The notes below the pieces were generated by a model. That model saw nothing but the letters and a program-made list of their open reading frames with translations, was not told where the DNA came from and did no database searches. The translations under genes and the position numbers were made by a program. A DNA stretch of 63,804 nucleotides, the filler included, from Candidatus Rokuibacteriota bacterium (GTDB lineage Bacteria > JAUVQV01 > DATDCY01), in NCBI GenBank assembly GCA_031406795.1. It is 5 parts of 5 records of this genome, joined end to end, with 100 filler letters (N's around TTAATTAATTAA, not from the genome) between each part and the next. Parts side by side here need not be neighbours in the genome. Positions count along the whole stretch, not along the records: positions 1 to 16,892 come from JANOHV010000237.1; 4 more parts are not named here. One strand, written 5' to 3'. Below are positions 921 through 15,333 of the stretch, piece by piece (position 1 is the first letter of the stretch; the number at the start of each line of letters is the position of its first letter).

Positions 921-2897
921 CTACTGCTTGCCCTTGACCAGGCTGTCGACGACGGCCGGGTCGAGCAGCGTCGAGGTGTCGCCGAGCTGGTCGATCTCGT
1001 TGTGGGCGATCTTGCGCAGGATGCGACGCATGATCTTGCCCGAGCGGGTCTTCGGCAGGCCGGGCGCGAACTGGAGCTTGTCGGGGGTGGCGATCGGCCC
1101 GATCACCGTGCGCACGTGACCGATCAGGGTCTTTTTGAGCACGTCGCTCGGCTCGACGCCCTGCTTGAGCGTGACGTAGGCGTAGATCCCCTCGCCCTTG
1201 ATGTCGTGCGGGTAGCCGACGACCGCGGCCTCGGCGACCGTCTCGTGGCTGACGAGAGCGGATTCGACCTCGGCCGTCCCGAGCCGGTGCCCGGAGATGT
1301 TGATGACATCGTCGACGCGGCCCAGGAGCCAGAAGTCGCCGTCATCGTCGATCCGGGCGCCATCCCCGGTGAAGTAGACACCGGGGTACGTCGAGAAGTA
1401 GACCTCCTTGATCCGCTTGCCCTCGGCGTCGCCGAAGGTGCCGCGCAGCATGCCGGGCCAGGGCTTCTCGATGACGAGCTTGCCGCCCTCGCCCTTGCCG
1501 GCGGGGGTCCCGTCGTCCTTGTAGACCTTCGGCACGACCCCGGGGAAAGGCCGGTTCGCCGACCCCGGCTTGAGGGTCATCGCGCCCGGCAGCGGCGTGA
1601 TCAGGATGCCGCCGGTCTCGGTCTGCCACCAGGTGTCCACGATCGGCAGCTTCCCCTTGCCGATGTTTCGGTGGTACCACATCCAAGCCTCGGGGTTGAT
1701 CGGCTCGCCGACCGAGCCGAGCAGCCGCAGGCTCGACAGGTCGTGCTTCTCGACGAACTTCTCGCCCTCGCGCATCAGGGCCCGGATCGCGGTCGGCGCG
1801 GTGTAGAAGATGCTGACCCGGTGCTTCTCGACGATCTCCCAGAAACGCCCGGCGTCCGGGTAGGTCGGGACCCCCTCGAACATCACGCTCGTCGCGCCGT
1901 TCGAGAGCGGTCCGTAGACGATGTAGCTGTGCCCGGTGACCCAGCCGATGTCCGCGGTGCAGAAGTGGATGTTCTCGGGGTGGTAGTCGAAAATCCACGA
2001 GAAGGTCAGGTTGGTGTACAGCGCGTAGCCGCCGGTCGTGTGCACGACGCCCTTGGGCTTGCCGGTCGAGCCGGAGGTGTAGAGGATGAACAGCGGGTCC
2101 TCGGCGTCCATCTGCTCGGGCTCGCAGGTGTTCTTGATGTCGGCGGCCTTCATTTCCTGGTGCCACCAGAGGTCGCGGCCCTCGGTCATCGGGGCGCCCT
2201 CGCCGGCACGGTGCACGACGAAGACCTTCTGGATCGTCGGGCACTCGCCGACAGCCGCGTCGGCGTTGGCCTTCTGGGGCAGCGTCTTGCCGCCGCGCAC
2301 GGCGTTGTCCTGGGTGACCAGGAAGGCCGACTTGCAGTCCTGGATGCGGTCGCGCAGCGACTGCGAGGAGAAGCCGCCGAAGACGACGCTGTGGATGGCG
2401 CCGATGCGCGTGCAGGCCAGGATCGCGATCGCCAGCTCGGGGATCATCTGCAGGTACATCGTGACCACGTCGCCCCGCTTCACGCCATTCTTGCGCATCA
2501 CGTTGGCGAAGCGGTTGACCTCGGTGGAGAGCTGCTGGTAAGTGAAGGTCCGGTAGCTGCCGTCGTCGCCCTCCCAGATGATCGCGGCCTTGTTGCGCGT
2601 GGCGCCCTGGCAGTGTCGGTCGAGGCAGTTGACCGACATGTTGAGCTTGCCCCCGACGAACCACTTGATGTAGGGCTTGTGGAAGTCGTAGTCGAGGACC
2701 TTGTCCCACTTCTTGAACCACGTGAGACGCTGCTCGGCCATCTCGGCCCAGAAGCCCTCCGGATCCTTCACCGAGCGGTCGTAGATCTTCTCGTAGTCCG
2801 CGAGGGACTTGATGTGAGCCGTCGCGGAGAATTCCTTGGAGGGCGGAAAGGTCCGCTTCTCGTCGCTCAGTACGGTCATCTTGTTGTCCTGCGTCAT
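921..2897 (-). CDS. acs: Acetyl-CoA synthetase (acetate--CoA ligase)
   Basis: [14 protein letters not shown]-binding motif, [10 protein letters not shown], and PKTRSGK with the acetylatable Lys. Confidence 0.97.
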
Positions 2898-2945
2898 GCC
2901 GCCTCCTTGTGGTGTTGTTGCCGCTCCCCTGGTGATGGCCCGGGG

Positions 2946-4508
2946 CTACTCCGCCCCGATGCCGACGTATGCTCGTAATTTCTCGTCCTCGAACTTCGCC
3001 TCGGCCGTCGGCTCGCGGGTCAGCAGCGAGACCACGATCCCGACCAGGAACGCGCCCCCCATAGAGAAGACGCCCGGGTTCTTGTACTTCACGATCGGCG
3101 CGGCATTGTGGAAGATGTCCACCCAGACCGTGGGGGAGAGCACGATCATGGACACGGCGACGATCAGGCCGGTGTAAATGCTCGTCACCGCCCCCACGGT
3201 GGTGAAGCGCTTCCAGAGAATCGACATCAACAGCGCGGGGAAGTTCGCGCTCGCGGCGACGGCGAAGGCCAGCCCGACCATGAAGGCCACGTTCTGGCCC
3301 TTGAAGGCGAGCCCGAGCACGACCGCGAGGATGCCCAGGGTCACCGTGGCGGCCTTGGCGACCTTGACCTCTTCGCGCTCCGCGGAGACGCCCCGGCGGA
3401 TGACGCCGACGTACAGGTCGTGCGAGAGCGCGGAGGCCCCGGCGAGCGTCAGGCCGGCGACCACCGCGAGGATCGTCGCGAAGGCCACGGCGGAGAGGAA
3501 GCCGAGGAAGATCGGGCCGCCCAGCGCCTCGGCGAGCAGCGGCGCGGCCATGTTGCCGCCCTTGTCGATGCCTGTGATGACTTTCTGTCCGACGAGCACC
3601 GCGGCGCCGAAGCCGATGGTCACGGTCAGGATGTAAAAGTAGCCGATGAAGCCGGTCGCGTAGAACACCGACTTGCGGGCCTCCTTCGCGTCGGGGACGG
3701 TGTAGAAGCGCATCAGGATGTGCGGCAGTCCCGCGGTGCCGAACATCAGCGCGAGTCCGAGGCTGAACGTGTCGAGCGGGTTGGTGTACATGCCGCCGGG
3801 CTCGAGGAACTTCTGGGTGTAGAGTTTGGCGGCCTCGCCGAAGAGTTTGCCGTAGCTGAAATCGAAGCGCGAGCCCACCATCAGCACGAGCAGGGTCGCT
3901 CCGCCGAGCAGCAGCACGGCCTTGATGATCTGCACCCAGGTCGTCGCAAGCATCCCGCCGAACAGCACGTACGAGATCATCAGCGCGCCGACGAGCACGA
4001 GCGCGCCCTCGAACGGCAGGTTGAACATCAGTTTGAAGAGCGTGCCGGCGCCGACCATCTGGGCGATCAGGTAGAAGAGCACCGTCACGAGCGAGCCGAT
4101 GGCGGCGGCGGCGCGGACCGGCCGCTGCTTGAGCCGGTAGGCCACGACGTCGGAGAAGGTGTACTTGCCGAGGTTGCGCAGCGGTTCGGCGATCAGGAAC
4201 ATCACGATCGGCCAGCCGACGAGCCAGCCGACCGAGTAGATCAGTCCGTCGTAACCCTTGGTTGCGACGATCCCGGCGATCCCGAGGAACGAGGCCGCGC
4301 TCATGTAGTCCCCGGCGAGCGCCAGGCCGTTCTGGAAGCCGGTGATGCTCCGGCCGGCGGCGTAGAACTCCTTCGTGGTGCGGGTGCGCTTGGCGGCCCA
4401 GTAGGTGATTCCCAGGGTGCTGAGCACGAAGAGCAGGAAGAAGGCGATTGCCTCGGGGCTGAGCGTGCCGACGACGGTCTGGTAGGCGGCGGGCTGTGCG
4501 GTCGGCAT
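2946..4508 (-). CDS. actP: Cation/acetate symporter ActP (SSS family)
   Basis: [29 protein letters not shown] and [25 protein letters not shown]; lies between DUF485 and acs. Confidence 0.93.
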
Positions 4509-4512
4509 CGCC

Positions 4513-4824
4513 TCAGGCTCCGATCTTCTCGCGGACGCGTTTGACGAGCGCGTCGTACGAGGTGTTGGCCCAATAGACGTAGATGCCGGTGAGCACCCAG
4601 GAGAGCAGGATGACGCCGACCGCGATCGGGATGCCGATGGTCATGGCGGAGTTCTCGGAGAGTTTGCCCGACAGGAATGGCTTGTTAAACGCGATCAGTG
4701 CGATGAAACCGAAGTACAGCGAGAGTTCCACGATCGTCAGCACAGTCGAGATCGTTCTCTTCTGTCCTGCCAGGGCCTGGAAGTCCGGGTCCTCAAGAAT
4801 GTTGTGCGCCGATTTCCCGCTCAT
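4513..4824 (-). CDS. DUF485 (YjcH-like) small membrane partner of ActP
   Basis: 2-TM protein with a [12 protein letters not shown] motif directly upstream of actP; start placed at MSGKSAH after a GGAGAGG RBS. Confidence 0.85.
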
Positions 4825-4951
4825 GCTGCCTCTCCCCAATGGATAGATATCGCCGCGTCGGGTCGGCCGGGCTGCAGTCCGGCGCACGATCCCCGCACCT
4901 GGAGGGGCATGCTACCACCAAGAAAAACGGGAAAAATCATTACTTTTCCGC

Positions 4952-14419: not shown

Positions 14420-14435
14420 GGCTGTACGAATCAAT

Positions 14436-14451
14436 AGCAATCCGCGTGCCA
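14436..14451 (-). promoter_or_regulatory. Sigma54 (-24/-12) promoter of DUF294-2/SSS module
   Basis: Minus strand reads TGGCACGCGGATTGCT, a perfect TGGCACG-N4-TTGCW match. Confidence 0.8.
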
Positions 14452-14587
14452 TTGATGAAGAGGGCCGGACGCTGACGGAAACTCCTCTAATACCGGCACG
14501 TTAGAAACCGTTTGGCTGATGCTTTCAGTTGCCGGCGCGGGATCTCGGGAAAAAAAGGTACGGCCCGGCAGATCGGTCAGGCGGCGT

Positions 14588-14602
14588 GTTACAAGAGGTA
14601 AC
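14588..14602. promoter_or_regulatory. Putative enhancer (bEBP) site
   Basis: Palindrome GTTACAAGAGGTAAC about 137 bp upstream of the sigma54 motif. Confidence 0.55.
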
Positions 14603-14625
14603 GGCACCGCAATGAGGAACTTCGT

Positions 14626-15333
14626 TCATGAAGAGACAATCAGCGGCAGGATCTCCTCCGGCGGGCCGATCAGCAGTGCGTTGACGGGCAGCTCGCCGAC
14701 TGGCTGTACGGGGGAGATTTCGACAAGGAAGGCGCCCGCCTTTCTCGCAACGCCGGCGAACAGCGCTGCGGGGGTGTTCCGGACCGAGGTGCCCGCGACG
14801 ATGAAGACCTCGCATTGCGAAAGCGCTTCGAAGCAGTTGACCAGCAGCTCCTGGGGGACGTGCTCCCCCTGCCAGAGGATGCCCGGCCGGACCAGGCCGG
14901 TACAGATCGGGCAGGAGGGCGGATTCGCGATCGGGATATCGCGGTTCACGGAGCGCATCCCGCAGCGCGTGCAGCGGACCACCCAGAGGTTTCCGCGCAA
15001 CTCGAGCACACTCCTGCTCCCGGCGAGCCGGTGCAGACCGTCGATGCCCTCGGTGGCGAGCGTGAACTCCTTCATGCGACTCTCCAGCGTCGTGAGCGCC
15101 TGGTGCGCCGCATTGGGGCGCACGCCGGCCAGCCGCGCGCGGTGTTCGTCGTACCACCGCCAGACCGCGAGCGGATCCTCGAAGAAGGGAAGCGGTGAGT
15201 CGAGGTCGAAGGCCGGCGTTTCACCGGCGGGAATCAGGCCCGCGCCGGTGAGGACGAAGACCCGCCTGGCCTTCGAGAGGCGGGAGCGGACTTCCTCCAG
15301 CAGGCGGCTCTGCTCTGCAGTCGCTGTTGCCAC
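14626..15333 (-). CDS. Sir2/CobB-family protein with degenerate active site
   Basis: LTGAG, PNAAH.AL, IDGLH..AGS, Zn site CTRC/CPIC and AGTS..PAA are present, but TQN is TEG and the catalytic HG is RG. Confidence 0.85.
   Translation of the reverse strand: MATATAEQSRLLEEVRSRLSKARRVFVLTGAGLIPAGETPAFDLDSPLPFFEDPLAVWRWYDEHRARLAGVRPNAAHQALTTLESRMKEFTLATEGIDGLHRLAGSRSVLELRGNLWVVRCTRCGMRSVNRDIPIANPPSCPICTGLVRPGILWQGEHVPQELLVNCFEALSQCEVFIVAGTSVRNTPAALFAGVARKAGAFLVEISPVQPVGELPVNALLIGPPEEILPLIVSS

What the first reader, a model, noticed from the sequence alone, without database searches (positions are those of the whole stretch)
921..15333. Twin co-regulated nucleotidyltransferase-transporter modules around acs: candidate post-translational control system for acetate uptake
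Seen: two paralogous cNMP-CBS-DUF294 proteins, both with an intact GS..DxD motif. Each heads its own transporter unit: DUF485-actP-acs, and DEDDh nuclease-DUF4212-SSS-small membrane protein. Both have a sigma54 promoter and the same upstream palindrome, and a pseudo-sirtuin sits upstream. Known: DUF294 NTases belong to the GlnD/GlnE-like fold and recur beside SSS transporters and DnaQ-like proteins; I know of no demonstrated substrate. Inference: a writer/eraser pair that senses adenylates (CBS) and cyclic nucleotide and nucleotidylates the transporters or Acs, with one eraser shared by two writers.
Basis: partly seen in the sequence, partly recalled or inferred. Interest (0 to 1): 0.8.

Follow-up and report, generated by a model that had tools for sequence, protein, structure and literature searches.

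The report
Twin sensor-nucleotidyltransferase carboxylate uptake operons
Two co-regulated operons for taking up and activating acetate-like acids are each headed by a sensor enzyme built like protein-AMP-adding enzymes; this gene set is already known from other bacteria, but its chemistry has never been shown.

Summary
On one contig of a Rokubacteria-like (Methylomirabilota) MAG, two paralogous cNMP-CBS-DUF294 proteins (54% identical) head (1) DUF485-actP-acs and (2) DEDDh exonuclease-DUF4212-SSS-small membrane protein. Each unit has a sigma54-type promoter. About 120-150 bp upstream of each lies the palindrome GTTAC-N5-GTAAC. Its only two exact copies in the 4.1 Mb genome are these two, and it is conserved in relatives. 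The upstream sirtuin homologue has lost its catalytic His, as does most of its clade.

The module itself is not new. It is the COG2905/exonuclease pair known as PP_0354/PP_0353, PA3233/PA3232 and Pflu5625, beside carboxylate symporters, with weak phenotypes and unknown biochemistry. This scan has already noted it in at least eight other genomes.

New evidence here:
- The NTase core models confidently as a GlnE/DrrA-type protein adenylyltransferase (Z about 25).
- Its catalytic residues are invariant in 28 homologues.
- In Armatimonadota the DEDDh partner is replaced by a fused PHP phosphoesterase.

This favours a writer/eraser nucleotidylation switch but does not prove one. The target is unknown. 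"One eraser shared by two writers" and a role for the pseudo-sirtuin are untested. Verdict: a new member of a known, uncharacterised kind, of moderate interest.

The parts
877..904 (-). Intrinsic terminator closing operon 1, just after acs
   Evidence: 12-bp, 11-GC stem followed by a T run.
921..2897 (-). acs, acetate-CoA ligase (658 aa). It keeps the C-terminal SGK motif that holds the acetylatable lysine in characterised Acs enzymes
   Evidence: Pfam ACAS_N, AMP-binding and AMP-binding_C. NCBIfam NF001208 scores 1022 bits, above its cut-off. The C-terminal sequence was printed.
2946..4508 (-). ActP/MctC-like sodium:monocarboxylate symporter
   Evidence: Pfam SSF 3e-108. NCBIfam ActP subfamily scores 736.5 bits, just under its cut-off of 750.
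4513..4825 (-). DUF485 (YjcH-type) small subunit of the ActP transporter. The start is taken as the ATG at 4825, which has an upstream GGGGAGAGG; the ORF is open to 4887
   Evidence: Pfam DUF485 4.5e-27; sequence read.
4952..6862 (-). Sensor NTase no. 1: cNMP-binding, CBS pair, DUF294, DUF294_C. The likely start is the ATG at 6862; the ORF is open to the GTG at 6946
   Evidence: Pfam. It is 54% identical to no. 2. Homology to the G003 orthologue begins at residue 29.
6960..6974 (-). Sigma54-type -24/-12 promoter of operon 1 (one mismatch to the consensus)
   Evidence: rpoN is present in the genome.
7080..7094 (.). Palindrome GTTAC-N5-GTAAC, the putative enhancer (UAS) of operon 1, 120 nt upstream of the promoter
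8204..9103 (-). YihY/BrkB-family inner-membrane protein, possibly the last gene of operon 2
   Evidence: Pfam Virul_fac_BrkB 7e-50. A BrkB gene also adjoins the DUF4212-SSS pair in G003.
9140..9433 (-). 97-aa protein with two predicted transmembrane segments, downstream of the SSS gene
   Evidence: The hydropathy scan gave three overlapping windows (2-20, 14-32, 66-84), read here as two segments at about 14-32 and 66-84. Homologues at 40-43% identity lie near the SSS gene in four betaproteobacterial loci. It gives only a weak YGGT match, E 0.014.
9515..11419 (-). VC_2705-family sodium:solute symporter, large subunit
   Evidence: NCBIfam TIGR03648 scores 747 bits, above its cut-off.
11416..11694 (-). 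DUF4212 symporter small subunit
   Evidence: Pfam DUF4212; NCBIfam TIGR03647.
11835..12503 (-). DnaQ-like DEDDh 3'-5' exonuclease (222 aa). Its start lies 8 nt after the stop of NTase no. 2
   Evidence: Pfam RNase_T. The five DEDDh residues are invariant in 22 partner exonucleases.
12512..14419 (-). Sensor NTase no. 2 (635 aa from the ATG at 14419)
   Evidence: Pfam. Most close homologues listed are 635 aa. The upstream ATG is out of frame in L100.
14437..14451 (-). Sigma54-type promoter of operon 2 (exact consensus)
   Evidence: It is conserved in G003 and L100, while the N5 spacer varies.
14588..14602 (.). Palindrome GTTAC-N5-GTAAC, the putative enhancer of operon 2, 151 nt upstream of the promoter
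14626..15378 (-). Catalytically degenerate sirtuin homologue. It is positionally linked and lies outside the sigma54 unit

Best explanation
This is the monocarboxylate (acetate/pyruvate/lactate-type) uptake-and-activation regulon of an uncultured Rokubacteria-like bacterium. It consists of two sigma54-dependent operons driven from the same GTTAC-N5-GTAAC enhancer site.

Each operon starts with a COG2905-type sensor nucleotidyltransferase (cNMP-binding, CBS pair, DUF294 core). These belong to the same family as PP_0354, PA3233 and Pflu5625.

The most likely mechanism is inferred, not shown:
- The NTase has a GlnE/DrrA-type protein-adenylyltransferase core with intact catalytic residues. It attaches an NMP to a hydroxyl of a protein of the uptake/activation machinery when its cNMP and adenylate sensors report the wrong energy or carbon state.
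- The co-translated DEDDh exonuclease, or a PHP phosphoesterase in other phyla, hydrolyses that phosphodiester and restores activity.
- The net effect is a fast post-translational throttle on carboxylate import and on ATP- and CoA-consuming activation. It sits on top of transcriptional induction by a carboxylate-responsive sigma54 activator.

Shown here: gene content, paralogy, motifs, promoter and enhancer conservation, fold, and conservation of the partner. Inferred: the chemistry, the target and the sign of regulation.
For: **Architecture and regulation**
- Architecture and paralogy are established.
- The enhancer's only two exact copies in the genome are these two.
- Genome-wide, a palindrome (at most 1 mismatch) followed within 40-260 nt by a sigma54 site occurs at only 3 places. 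They are the two here and one in front of an MHS-type carboxylate MFS transporter.
- The palindrome-plus-promoter pair is conserved in G003, G004 and L100. rpoN is present.

**NTase enzyme**
- The model has pLDDT 94.3.
- Only GlnE-N, GlnE-C and DrrA match over the whole core. Foldseek gives E 7e-7 to 2e-5. VIA gives Z 25.9, 25.1 and 24.9 with 301-305 residues aligned.
- The G-S, D-x-D and a later Asp are invariant in 28 homologues.

**Partner**
- The DEDDh catalytic residues are invariant in 22 partner exonucleases.
- DEDDh is adjacent to the NTase in 34 of 45 loci, spanning Rokubacteria, Gamma- and Betaproteobacteria.
- A PHP phosphoesterase is fused to Cache-PAS-CBS-DUF294 in 26 of 33 long homologues. 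Two of these were checked.

**Literature**
- On pyruvate, the P. putida exonuclease mutant behaves like the actP/yjcH mutants while the NTase mutant does not (PMC9927547 sections 7-8; preprint 10.64898/2026.09.07.749794, passages). This fits opposing roles.
- A ribonuclease (RNase Z) is a proven protein deAMPylase (PMC12663964, abstract).
Against: - No biochemical activity is known for any DUF294 protein. Searches found none.
- Fold similarity does not fix the substrate. The next-best whole-core matches are aminoglycoside (small-molecule) NTases.
- On propionate, both P. putida mutants grow worse and the actP mutant does not (2026 preprint). Simple antagonism on ActP is therefore not the whole story.
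- The NTase tree shows the paralogues arose within the phylum and that lineages swap between DUF4212-SSS, ActP and HK-REC contexts. This argues against a transporter-specific target.
- Five loci have a histidine kinase next to the NTase and no phosphoesterase found; a stand-alone receiver was found in two of them.
- Module 1 has no exonuclease of its own.
- The -12 element ends only 15-17 nt before the ATG in four genomes. That leaves an almost leaderless mRNA, which is unusual.
Confidence: 0.45

Rival explanations
1. Second-messenger logic. The NTase is a signal-output domain that makes a soluble nucleotide product (a linear or cyclic oligonucleotide, or a nucleotidylated metabolite). The DEDDh or PHP partner degrades that product, as GGDEF/EAL or cyclase/phosphodiesterase pairs do. 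The product then tunes transport or metabolism.
For: - DUF294 sits at the output end of Cache-PAS-CBS sensor proteins, fused to a PHP phosphoesterase.
- It also lies in operons with a histidine kinase and, in some, a stand-alone receiver.
- NTase lineages move freely between genomic contexts.
- From recalled general knowledge, DEDD, PHP and metallophosphoesterase enzymes commonly degrade small nucleotides.
Against: - The whole 300-residue core, including the helical C-terminal domain, matches only protein adenylyltransferases at Z about 25.
- No cGAS, OAS or CD-NTase chain appears among the 50 rows listed. That is only a weak absence.
Confidence: 0.2
2. RNA-directed control. The DEDDh protein is a true exoribonuclease needed for expression of the symporter, by maturing or degrading an mRNA or small RNA. 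The NTase either tails RNA 3' ends or switches the nuclease off by nucleotidylating it, as MntA does to HepT.
For: - Price et al. (bioRxiv 10.1101/072470, passages) found DUF4212 genes cofit with the nearby RNase T-domain gene. They speculated it is needed for expression of the symporter.
- Henriquez et al. (PMC9927547, section 8) speculate on mRNA degradation.
- The exonuclease mutant has a pyruvate phenotype and the NTase mutant does not.
- The C-terminal domain of the NTase resembles HEPN-type domains, including AMPylated HepT, at Z about 8.
- The NTase and DEDDh genes are 8 nt apart.
Against: - Replacement of DEDDh by a fused PHP domain in another phylum is easier to explain if the partner supplies a hydrolytic activity than if it is the NTase's target.
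- The NTase core did not match CCA-adding or poly(A) polymerases in the listed hits.
Confidence: 0.2
3. The pseudo-sirtuin belongs to the switch. It would act, for example, as a non-catalytic reader or adaptor for acyl-lysine Acs or for ADP-ribose-type ligands, feeding into NTase no. 2.
For: - It belongs to a clade of 27 close homologues in which the catalytic position is Arg in 22. None keeps the QN pair, while the Zn-binding cysteines stay conserved.
- It is an intact ORF at 58-63% identity in G003 and L100, at the same place upstream of the NTase no. 2 orthologue.
- It is the only SIR2 gene found in a genome that is 99.9% complete.
- Acs keeps its acetylatable-lysine motif.
Against: - The gene lies upstream of the enhancer, outside the sigma54 unit.
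- It is absent from this position in G001 and G002, which keep the NTase operon.
- The linkage is seen only among close relatives, so it may be plain synteny.
Confidence: 0.12
4. The DEDDh gene is an ordinary DNA-proofreading or repair nuclease that merely sits beside the NTase.
For: - Its best sequence matches are DnaQ/PolC-type exonucleases.
Against: - Adjacency to DUF294 is conserved in 34 of 45 loci across phyla, and the two genes are 8 nt apart here.
- The genome has a second DUF294-DEDDh pair. It also has a third RNase_T gene whose best match is a Pol III epsilon model, though below that model's cut-off.
- It scores below the cut-offs of the equivalog-type dnaQ models, for example TIGR01406 at 67 against 223 bits.
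Confidence: 0.03

Closest known systems
PP_0354/PP_0353 (P. putida KT2440), PA3233/PA3232 (P. aeruginosa), Pflu5625 (P. fluorescens): the COG2905 NTase plus RNase_T exonuclease pair of the CrbS/R (MxtR/ErdR) acetate regulon
   Same: - The NTase has the same cNMP-CBS-DUF294-DUF294_C architecture.
- It has an adjacent DEDDh exonuclease.
- It is linked to yjcH-actP and acs, and is induced together with carboxylate uptake genes.
- Its function is unknown (PMC5715377, PMC9927547, PMC9765439 and the 2026 preprint; passages or sections read).
   Different: - Here there are two NTase paralogues on one contig, and one of them lacks an exonuclease.
- acs lies in the same operon.
- Control is by sigma54 with a GTTAC-N5-GTAAC site. 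In the pseudomonads it is by the LuxR-type CrbR, the ACTU repeat and an RpoD promoter.
- The host phylum is different.
DUF4212 + VC_2705-type SSS symporter clusters (Sama_1522-1525, Psest_0346-0349; Price et al.)
   Same: - The small and large symporter subunits are followed or preceded by the NTase and the exonuclease.
- Cofitness of the transporter with the nearby RNase T-domain gene is reported (bioRxiv 10.1101/072470, passages).
   Different: - The gene order differs: here the NTase and exonuclease come first.
- The substrate here is unknown.
- Which Shewanella gene is the cofit one is ambiguous in the text I read.
GlnE (glutamine synthetase adenylyltransferase) and DrrA/SidM AMPylation domain
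   Same: - They share the fold over about 300 residues, Z 24.9-25.9.
- The G-X11-D-X-D spacing is the same. The motif name is recalled; the spacing was read.
- A helical KNTase_C/HEPN-like C-terminal domain is present, and is grouped with DUF294_C in PMC3710099 (passages).
   Different: - Sequence identity is only 12-14%.
- It hits Pfam DUF294, not the GlnE family.
- The sensor domains differ (cNMP and CBS).
- The opposing activity would come from a DEDDh or PHP hydrolase. GlnE uses a second NTase domain and DrrA is opposed by SidD.
- No substrate is known.
Pat/CobB (and cNMP-regulated mycobacterial Pat) acetylation switch on Acs
   Same: - The logic is the same: a nucleotide-sensing modifier encoded near acs, plus a sirtuin-family gene.
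- The cNMP domain of NTase no. 1 gives a weak hit to the mycobacterial Pat model.
   Different: - The modifying domain here is an NTase, not a GNAT.
- The sirtuin homologue lacks the catalytic His and the NAD-binding motifs.
- Acetylation of this Acs was not tested.
SelO/RNase Z and MntA/HepT
   Same: - SelO/RNase Z is a precedent for a nuclease acting as a protein deAMPylase (PMC12663964, abstract).
- MntA/HepT is a precedent for an NTase that AMPylates its RNase partner (PMC7641770, search listing and start of the abstract only).
   Different: - The writers have different folds (SelO is a pseudokinase; MntA is a minimal NTase).
- The nucleases have different folds (metallo-beta-lactamase; HEPN).
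- Neither system is linked to transporters.
Sigma54 two-component control of carboxylate uptake and catabolism (DctB/DctD, AtoS/AtoC type)
   Same: - The same elements are present: -24/-12 promoters with an upstream palindromic enhancer in front of carboxylate transporter genes.
- An AtoC-like activator and a dCache-PAS kinase lie beside the third DUF294-DEDDh pair of this genome.
   Different: - Which activator binds the site is not established.
- The AtoC-like protein scores below the AtoC cut-off, 416 against 714 bits.

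Membership tests
COG2905-type sensor NTase (cNMP-CBS-DUF294-DUF294_C) with exonuclease and carboxylate symporter | Domain order: cNMP_binding, two CBS, DUF294, DUF294_C | tested here: met
   Both paralogues score over the Pfam cut-offs for all four families.
COG2905-type sensor NTase (cNMP-CBS-DUF294-DUF294_C) with exonuclease and carboxylate symporter | Intact Pol-beta NTase catalytic motif (G-S ... 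D-x-D plus a third acidic residue) | tested here: met
   G74, S75, D86, D88 and D170 are invariant in 28 sequences. The motif is present in both paralogues.
COG2905-type sensor NTase (cNMP-CBS-DUF294-DUF294_C) with exonuclease and carboxylate symporter | Adjacent RNase_T/DEDDh exonuclease gene | tested here: met
   Met for module 2, where the two genes are 8 nt apart. Module 1 and its G003 orthologue have none. Across the survey, 34 of 45 loci have one.
COG2905-type sensor NTase (cNMP-CBS-DUF294-DUF294_C) with exonuclease and carboxylate symporter | Adjacent DUF485-ActP or DUF4212-SSS symporter | tested here: met
   Both types are present here. A symporter lies within 3 kb in 29 of 45 loci.
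CrbS/R (MxtR/ErdR) regulon | ACTU inverted repeat next to an RpoD promoter; LuxR-type CrbR | tested here: not met
   The sites here are GTTAC-N5-GTAAC, 120-151 nt upstream of -24/-12 promoters. The ACTU examples printed in PMC5715377 differ in sequence and spacing. I did not search the genome for CrbS/R.
GlnE/DrrA-type protein adenylyltransferases | NTase core plus helical C-terminal domain of the GlnE/DrrA fold | tested here: met
   VIA Z 25.9, 25.1 and 24.9, rmsd 2.9-4.0 A, 301-305 residues aligned. Foldseek probability 1.00.
GlnE/DrrA-type protein adenylyltransferases | Sequence-family membership (Pfam GlnE or GlnD models) | tested here: not met
   The Pfam hits are DUF294 and DUF294_C only. 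The PDB sequence search finds no NTase-domain relative.
GlnE/DrrA-type protein adenylyltransferases | Transfers NMP to a protein tyrosine | not testable with these tools
   This needs biochemistry.
Sirtuin (NAD-dependent protein deacylase, CobB type) | SIR2 fold and family match | tested here: met
   Pfam SIR2 scores 103.6 bits, covering profile positions 29-177 of 180. It lies below all NCBIfam cut-offs; the best is 152.6 against 243.
Sirtuin (NAD-dependent protein deacylase, CobB type) | Catalytic His and the NAD-binding motifs (GAGIS..FR, TQN) | tested here: not met
   His is replaced by Arg, and TQN by TEG, against Sir2-Af1. All 48 of 48 more distant homologues keep these motifs. In the 27-member clade the catalytic position is R in 22, H in 3, C in 1 and F in 1.
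Sirtuin (NAD-dependent protein deacylase, CobB type) | Zn-binding Cys4 module | tested here: met
   CTRCG and CPICTG are conserved through the clade.
DnaQ/epsilon proofreading exonuclease | DEDDh catalytic residues | tested here: met
   D32, E34, D119, H184 and D189 are invariant in 22 sequences.
DnaQ/epsilon proofreading exonuclease | Equivalog-level match to Pol III epsilon | tested here: not met
   TIGR01406 scores 67.1 against a cut-off of 222.7, and NF004316 scores 71.2 against 196. Only the domain-level dnaq model is passed, at 92.1 against 71.5.
Sigma54-dependent, enhancer-activated promoter | -24 GG and -12 GC elements at the right spacing, an upstream enhancer, and rpoN in the genome | tested here: met
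   The identity of the activator and the transcription start were not tested.

The most novel reading that the evidence does not exclude
A DnaQ-like DEDDh exonuclease acts as a protein de-nucleotidylase, which would be a first for that fold. It erases NMP marks that two differently tuned cNMP/adenylate-sensing GlnE-type writers place on the carboxylate uptake/activation machinery (ActP or SSS subunits, or Acs). A conserved His-to-Arg pseudo-sirtuin, the only sirtuin homologue in this genome, serves as a non-catalytic reader or adaptor on Acs. Together they would form a new post-translational control layer for acetate-type carbon entry, shared by many phyla.
Probability: 0.12. Interest if true: 0.85.

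Novelty: new member of a known kind. Interest (0 to 1): 0.45.

Why it matters
COG2905/DUF294 proteins are very common. One capped search found more than 4000 clusters at E <= 1e-10 among the 7999 candidates scored. They sit beside the main acetate, pyruvate and lactate importers of many bacteria. They are among the most strongly induced genes of the acetate switch in pseudomonads, yet no activity has been shown for any of them.

This locus adds three testable handles:
- A confident GlnE/DrrA-type model, which points to protein nucleotidylation.
- A natural arrangement of two NTases with one exonuclease, under one enhancer.
- The observation that the hydrolase partner can be DEDDh or PHP. This defines what the partner must do chemically.

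If the switch is real, it would be a new reversible modification controlling carbon entry. It would matter for acetate-based bioprocesses and for pathogens that rely on the acetate switch. The organism is uncultured, so the tests are better done on the Pseudomonas orthologues.

Tried and rejected
- **Complex prediction of NTase core with DEDDh.** It returned no verdict (score 0.00, mark 0.32). This is not evidence either way.
- **Sigma54 consensus alone.** It is not enriched in the window: 4 hits against 3.38 expected. The promoter calls rest on position, the palindrome and conservation.
- **Internal sigma54 promoters.** I looked between NTase no. 1 and DUF485, and between DEDDh and DUF4212, and found none by eye. 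G003 does have a palindrome (1 mismatch) plus promoter between its NTase and DUF485.
- **Sigma70-like sites.** There was 1 against 1.5 expected, which is uninformative.
- **Metagenome scan with the pseudo-sirtuin.** It returned only one locus, L100, so the clade's wider context could not be surveyed. That two further clade members share contigs with NTase orthologues rests only on equal contig lengths.
- **NTase-exonuclease fusions.** The search for long fused forms (over 1132 aa) found PHP fusions but no RNase_T fusions. Fusions of intermediate length could not be listed.
- **Metallophosphoesterase partner.** Earlier scan notes report one beside DUF294. I found none in the five DEDDh-less loci checked. 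One does follow the MFS gene of the third enhancer site.
- **Deep NTase-transporter co-diversification.** It was not seen in the tree of 33 NTase cores. Fragments aligning over fewer than 280 residues were dropped before the tree, including the ActP-linked G005 copy. Four rows sit on long branches.
- **Small ORF.** The 97-aa ORF has no detectable similarity to the 89-aa YGGT-like ORF after the SSS gene in L001.
- **"DUF294" literature search.** At least one of its 22 hits is a word-start match to another DUF: the one I opened matched DUF2946.

Full report
**What is there.** The window is several MAG contigs joined by runs of N. The finding lies wholly on the first, 1-16892, which is G000:C150. 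The closest public relatives are Candidatus Rokubacteria/Methylomirabilota MAGs, at 91% protein identity for NTase no. 2.

All genes of interest are on the minus strand. In order of transcription they are:
- a SIR2 homologue (14626-15378)
- the palindrome GTTAC-N5-GTAAC (14588-14602)
- a sigma54-type promoter (14437-14451)
- NTase no. 2 (12512-14419)
- a DEDDh exonuclease starting 8 nt after the NTase stop (11835-12503)
- DUF4212 (11416-11694)
- a VC_2705-type SSS (9515-11419)
- a 97-aa two-TM ORF (9140-9433)
- YihY/BrkB (8204-9103)

An RnfD-like gene follows on the other strand (7251-8183). The second unit then runs:
- the palindrome again (7080-7094)
- a sigma54-type promoter with one mismatch (6960-6974)
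- NTase no. 1 (4952-6862)
- DUF485 (4513-4825)
- ActP (2946-4508)
- acs (921-2897)
- a strong intrinsic terminator (877-904)

**Is it more than chance?**
- The two NTases are 54% identical over 625 residues without gaps.
- The sigma54 pattern alone is not enriched in the window: 4 hits with up to 1 mismatch against 3.38 expected.
- The palindrome occurs twice against 0.00 expected in 100 shuffles. These are its only exact copies in the 4.1 Mb genome, and the reversed control pattern occurs once.
- My script found 24 strand-counted palindrome sites with up to 1 mismatch in the whole genome. A sigma54-like site (at least 9 of 10 positions) follows within 40-260 nt at only three of them.
- Those three are the two sites here and one on C277. 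The C277 site precedes an MHS-type MFS carboxylate transporter and a metallophosphoesterase.
- The genome holds 16 exact sigma54 consensus sites, and rpoN is present.

The palindrome-plus-promoter pair recurs upstream of NTase orthologues:
- in G003 (L085)
- in G004, a different family (L089)
- in a metagenome contig (L100)
- with one mismatch, between the NTase and DUF485 in G003 (L080)

In the alignment of three orthologous upstream regions, the specified positions are kept while the spacers vary. In L100 the upstream ATG is out of frame, so the motif is non-coding.

One oddity remains. The -12 element ends 15-17 nt before the ATG in four genomes, which implies a leader of about 5-6 nt.

**What the module is.** It is the known COG2905/exonuclease/symporter set.
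- Pflu5625 (cAMP-binding, CBS, NTase) belongs to the CrbS/R regulon of P. fluorescens. [quoted passage not shown]
- PP_0354 and PP_0353 form an ErdR-dependent operon. The exonuclease mutant and the actP-I mutant grow poorly on pyruvate; the NTase mutant does not (PMC9927547, abstract and sections 7-8).
- A 2026 preprint adds that both mutants grow worse on propionate and still calls the function unknown (10.64898/2026.09.07.749794, passages).
- PA3232-PA3235 are co-induced about 16-fold on propionate (PMC9765439, passages).
- Price et al. found DUF4212-SSS genes cofit with the nearby "RNAse T domain protein" (10.1101/072470, passages).

My literature searches found no demonstrated substrate. 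Earlier notes of this scan describe the same cluster in at least eight other genomes.

**Survey.** I examined 45 loci fetched with NTase no. 2. They are not independent, because many are Zoogloea.
- DEDDh is adjacent in 33 by tblastn, plus L004 by Pfam.
- A symporter lies within 3 kb in 29.
- An acs homologue at 45% identity or more lies in the locus in 12.
- Among the 31 loci with at least 3 kb on both sides, the counts are 24 for DEDDh, 22 for a symporter and 19 for both.

Within the phylum:
- G003 has BrkB-DUF4212-SSS-NTase1-DUF485-actP-acs. This is the orthologue of module 1, and it also lacks an exonuclease.
- G003 also has Omp85-like, Sir2, NTase2 and DEDDh in that order.
- G005 has two tandem modules, each with its own DEDDh.

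The window's own genome has three DUF294 genes and three RNase_T genes.
- The third NTase-DEDDh pair is followed by a dCache-PAS histidine kinase and a lone receiver. An AtoC-like sigma54 activator lies about 8 kb away.
- The third RNase_T gene best matches a Pol III epsilon model, though below that model's cut-off.

Five DEDDh-less proteobacterial loci have a large histidine kinase next to a CBS-DUF294 gene. A lone receiver was found in two of them.

**Mechanistic evidence.**
- No solved structure matches the NTase part by sequence.
- A model built from a 28-sequence alignment is confident: pLDDT 94.3, pTM 0.91.
- Foldseek finds four chains at E <= 0.001, from three entries. They are GlnE-N, DrrA bound to Rab8a, and GlnE-C (two chains).
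- An independent all-against-representatives search gives Z 25.9, 25.1 and 24.9 with 301-305 residues aligned. A gap follows, to partial DrrA chains (11.5, 10.9) and then HEPN-like helical domains (under 9).
- Every full-length match is therefore a protein adenylyltransferase.
- The G-S, D-x-D and a later Asp are invariant in the alignment.
- The partner exonucleases keep all five DEDDh residues.
- Among 33 homologues longer than 1132 aa, 26 carry a PHP phosphoesterase domain by precomputed Pfam. Checking two showed PHP, sCache, PAS, CBS, DUF294 and DUF294_C in that order. In one of the two, PHP falls just under Pfam's cut-off.
- A hydrolase of another fold, fused to the NTase, suggests the partner supplies a phosphodiesterase activity and is not the target.
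- RNase Z as a deAMPylase is a published precedent for a nuclease doing this (PMC12663964, abstract).

Against a transporter-specific target, the NTase tree shows the Rokubacterial paralogues arising within the phylum. Lineages also switch between DUF4212-SSS, ActP and HK-REC contexts (33 rows, four on long branches, fragments under 280 residues dropped).

**The sirtuin homologue.**
- Against Sir2-Af1, the catalytic His is Arg and the QN pair is EG. The N-terminal NAD motif is degenerate.
- Among the first 75 of the 120 homologues listed, 27 form a close clade at 53% identity or more. In the clade the catalytic position is R in 22, H in 3, C in 1 and F in 1. None keeps QN.
- All 48 more distant homologues keep GAGIS..FR, TQN and His. 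The zinc cysteines are conserved throughout.
- The clade is thus a maintained, non-canonical sirtuin subfamily.
- It is the only SIR2 gene found in this genome, which is 99.9% complete.
- It sits upstream of the NTase no. 2 orthologue in the window, in G003 and in L100. It is absent there in G001 and G002, and it lies outside the sigma54 unit.
- A functional link is therefore only a possibility.

**Verdict.**
Co-regulation, fold and the conserved hydrolase partner are supported. The target, the eraser role, the shared eraser and a sirtuin role are not shown.
- This is a new member of a known but biochemically uncharacterised kind. Its regulatory wiring is new (sigma54 plus a unique enhancer), and it has a notable pseudo-sirtuin neighbour.

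Noticed in passing
G000:C277:27247-27396 (locus L102), outside the window: This is the third and only other place in the genome where the palindrome (1 mismatch) is followed by an exact sigma54 consensus, 149 nt apart. It precedes an MHS-type MFS metabolite/H+ symporter and a calcineurin-like metallophosphoesterase. A CitMHS transporter gene lies upstream.
   Followed up: partly
G000:C209 (locus L079:247-11342), outside the window: The third DUF294-DEDDh pair of the genome is followed by a dCache-PAS histidine kinase and a stand-alone receiver. An AtoC-like sigma54 response regulator lies about 8 kb away and is a candidate activator for the palindrome.
   Followed up: partly
window 14419-14451; L085, L100, L089: The sigma54 -12 element ends only 15-17 nt before the start codon in four genomes. 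This implies a nearly leaderless mRNA with no Shine-Dalgarno sequence.
   Followed up: partly
window 7251-8183 (+): An orphan RnfD/NqrB-like membrane gene sits between the two modules on the opposite strand, with no other rnf or nqr genes beside it. It is absent from the corresponding place in G003.
   Followed up: no
proteins P0245-P0277 (Armatimonadota and others): These are long sensor proteins of about 1200 aa with the order PHP phosphoesterase, sCache, PAS, CBS, DUF294, DUF294_C. They are a fused form of the NTase with a hydrolase of a different fold.
   Followed up: partly
L031, L033, L034, L036, L018: In Chromatiaceae-type and some betaproteobacterial loci, a CBS-DUF294 gene without a cNMP domain sits beside a histidine kinase of about 910-925 aa. 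The kinase has a 680-aa N-terminal region with no Pfam match. A 124-aa lone receiver was found in two of these loci. No exonuclease was found.
   Followed up: partly
L029:7886-10048 (Zoogloea) and similar loci: Here the DEDDh domain is the C-terminal part of a 721-aa ORF. The ORF has a hydrophobic N-terminus and no other Pfam match.
   Followed up: partly
window 9140-9433 (-): This small two-TM protein follows the SSS gene. Homologues at 40-43% identity lie near the SSS genes of four betaproteobacterial loci. It has no family assignment, only a YGGT-like match at E 0.014.
   Followed up: partly
window 16893-16992, 32357-32456, 53607-53706, 61889-61988: Paired runs of N mark joins between separate contigs, so genes beyond 16892 are not neighbours of the finding.
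   Followed up: yes
window 36349-38322 (-) and 56604-58124 (-): A CHASE2-HD(HD_5) protein and a REC-GAF-GGDEF protein lie on other contigs of the window. They are further nucleotide-signalling genes of this genome.
   Followed up: no
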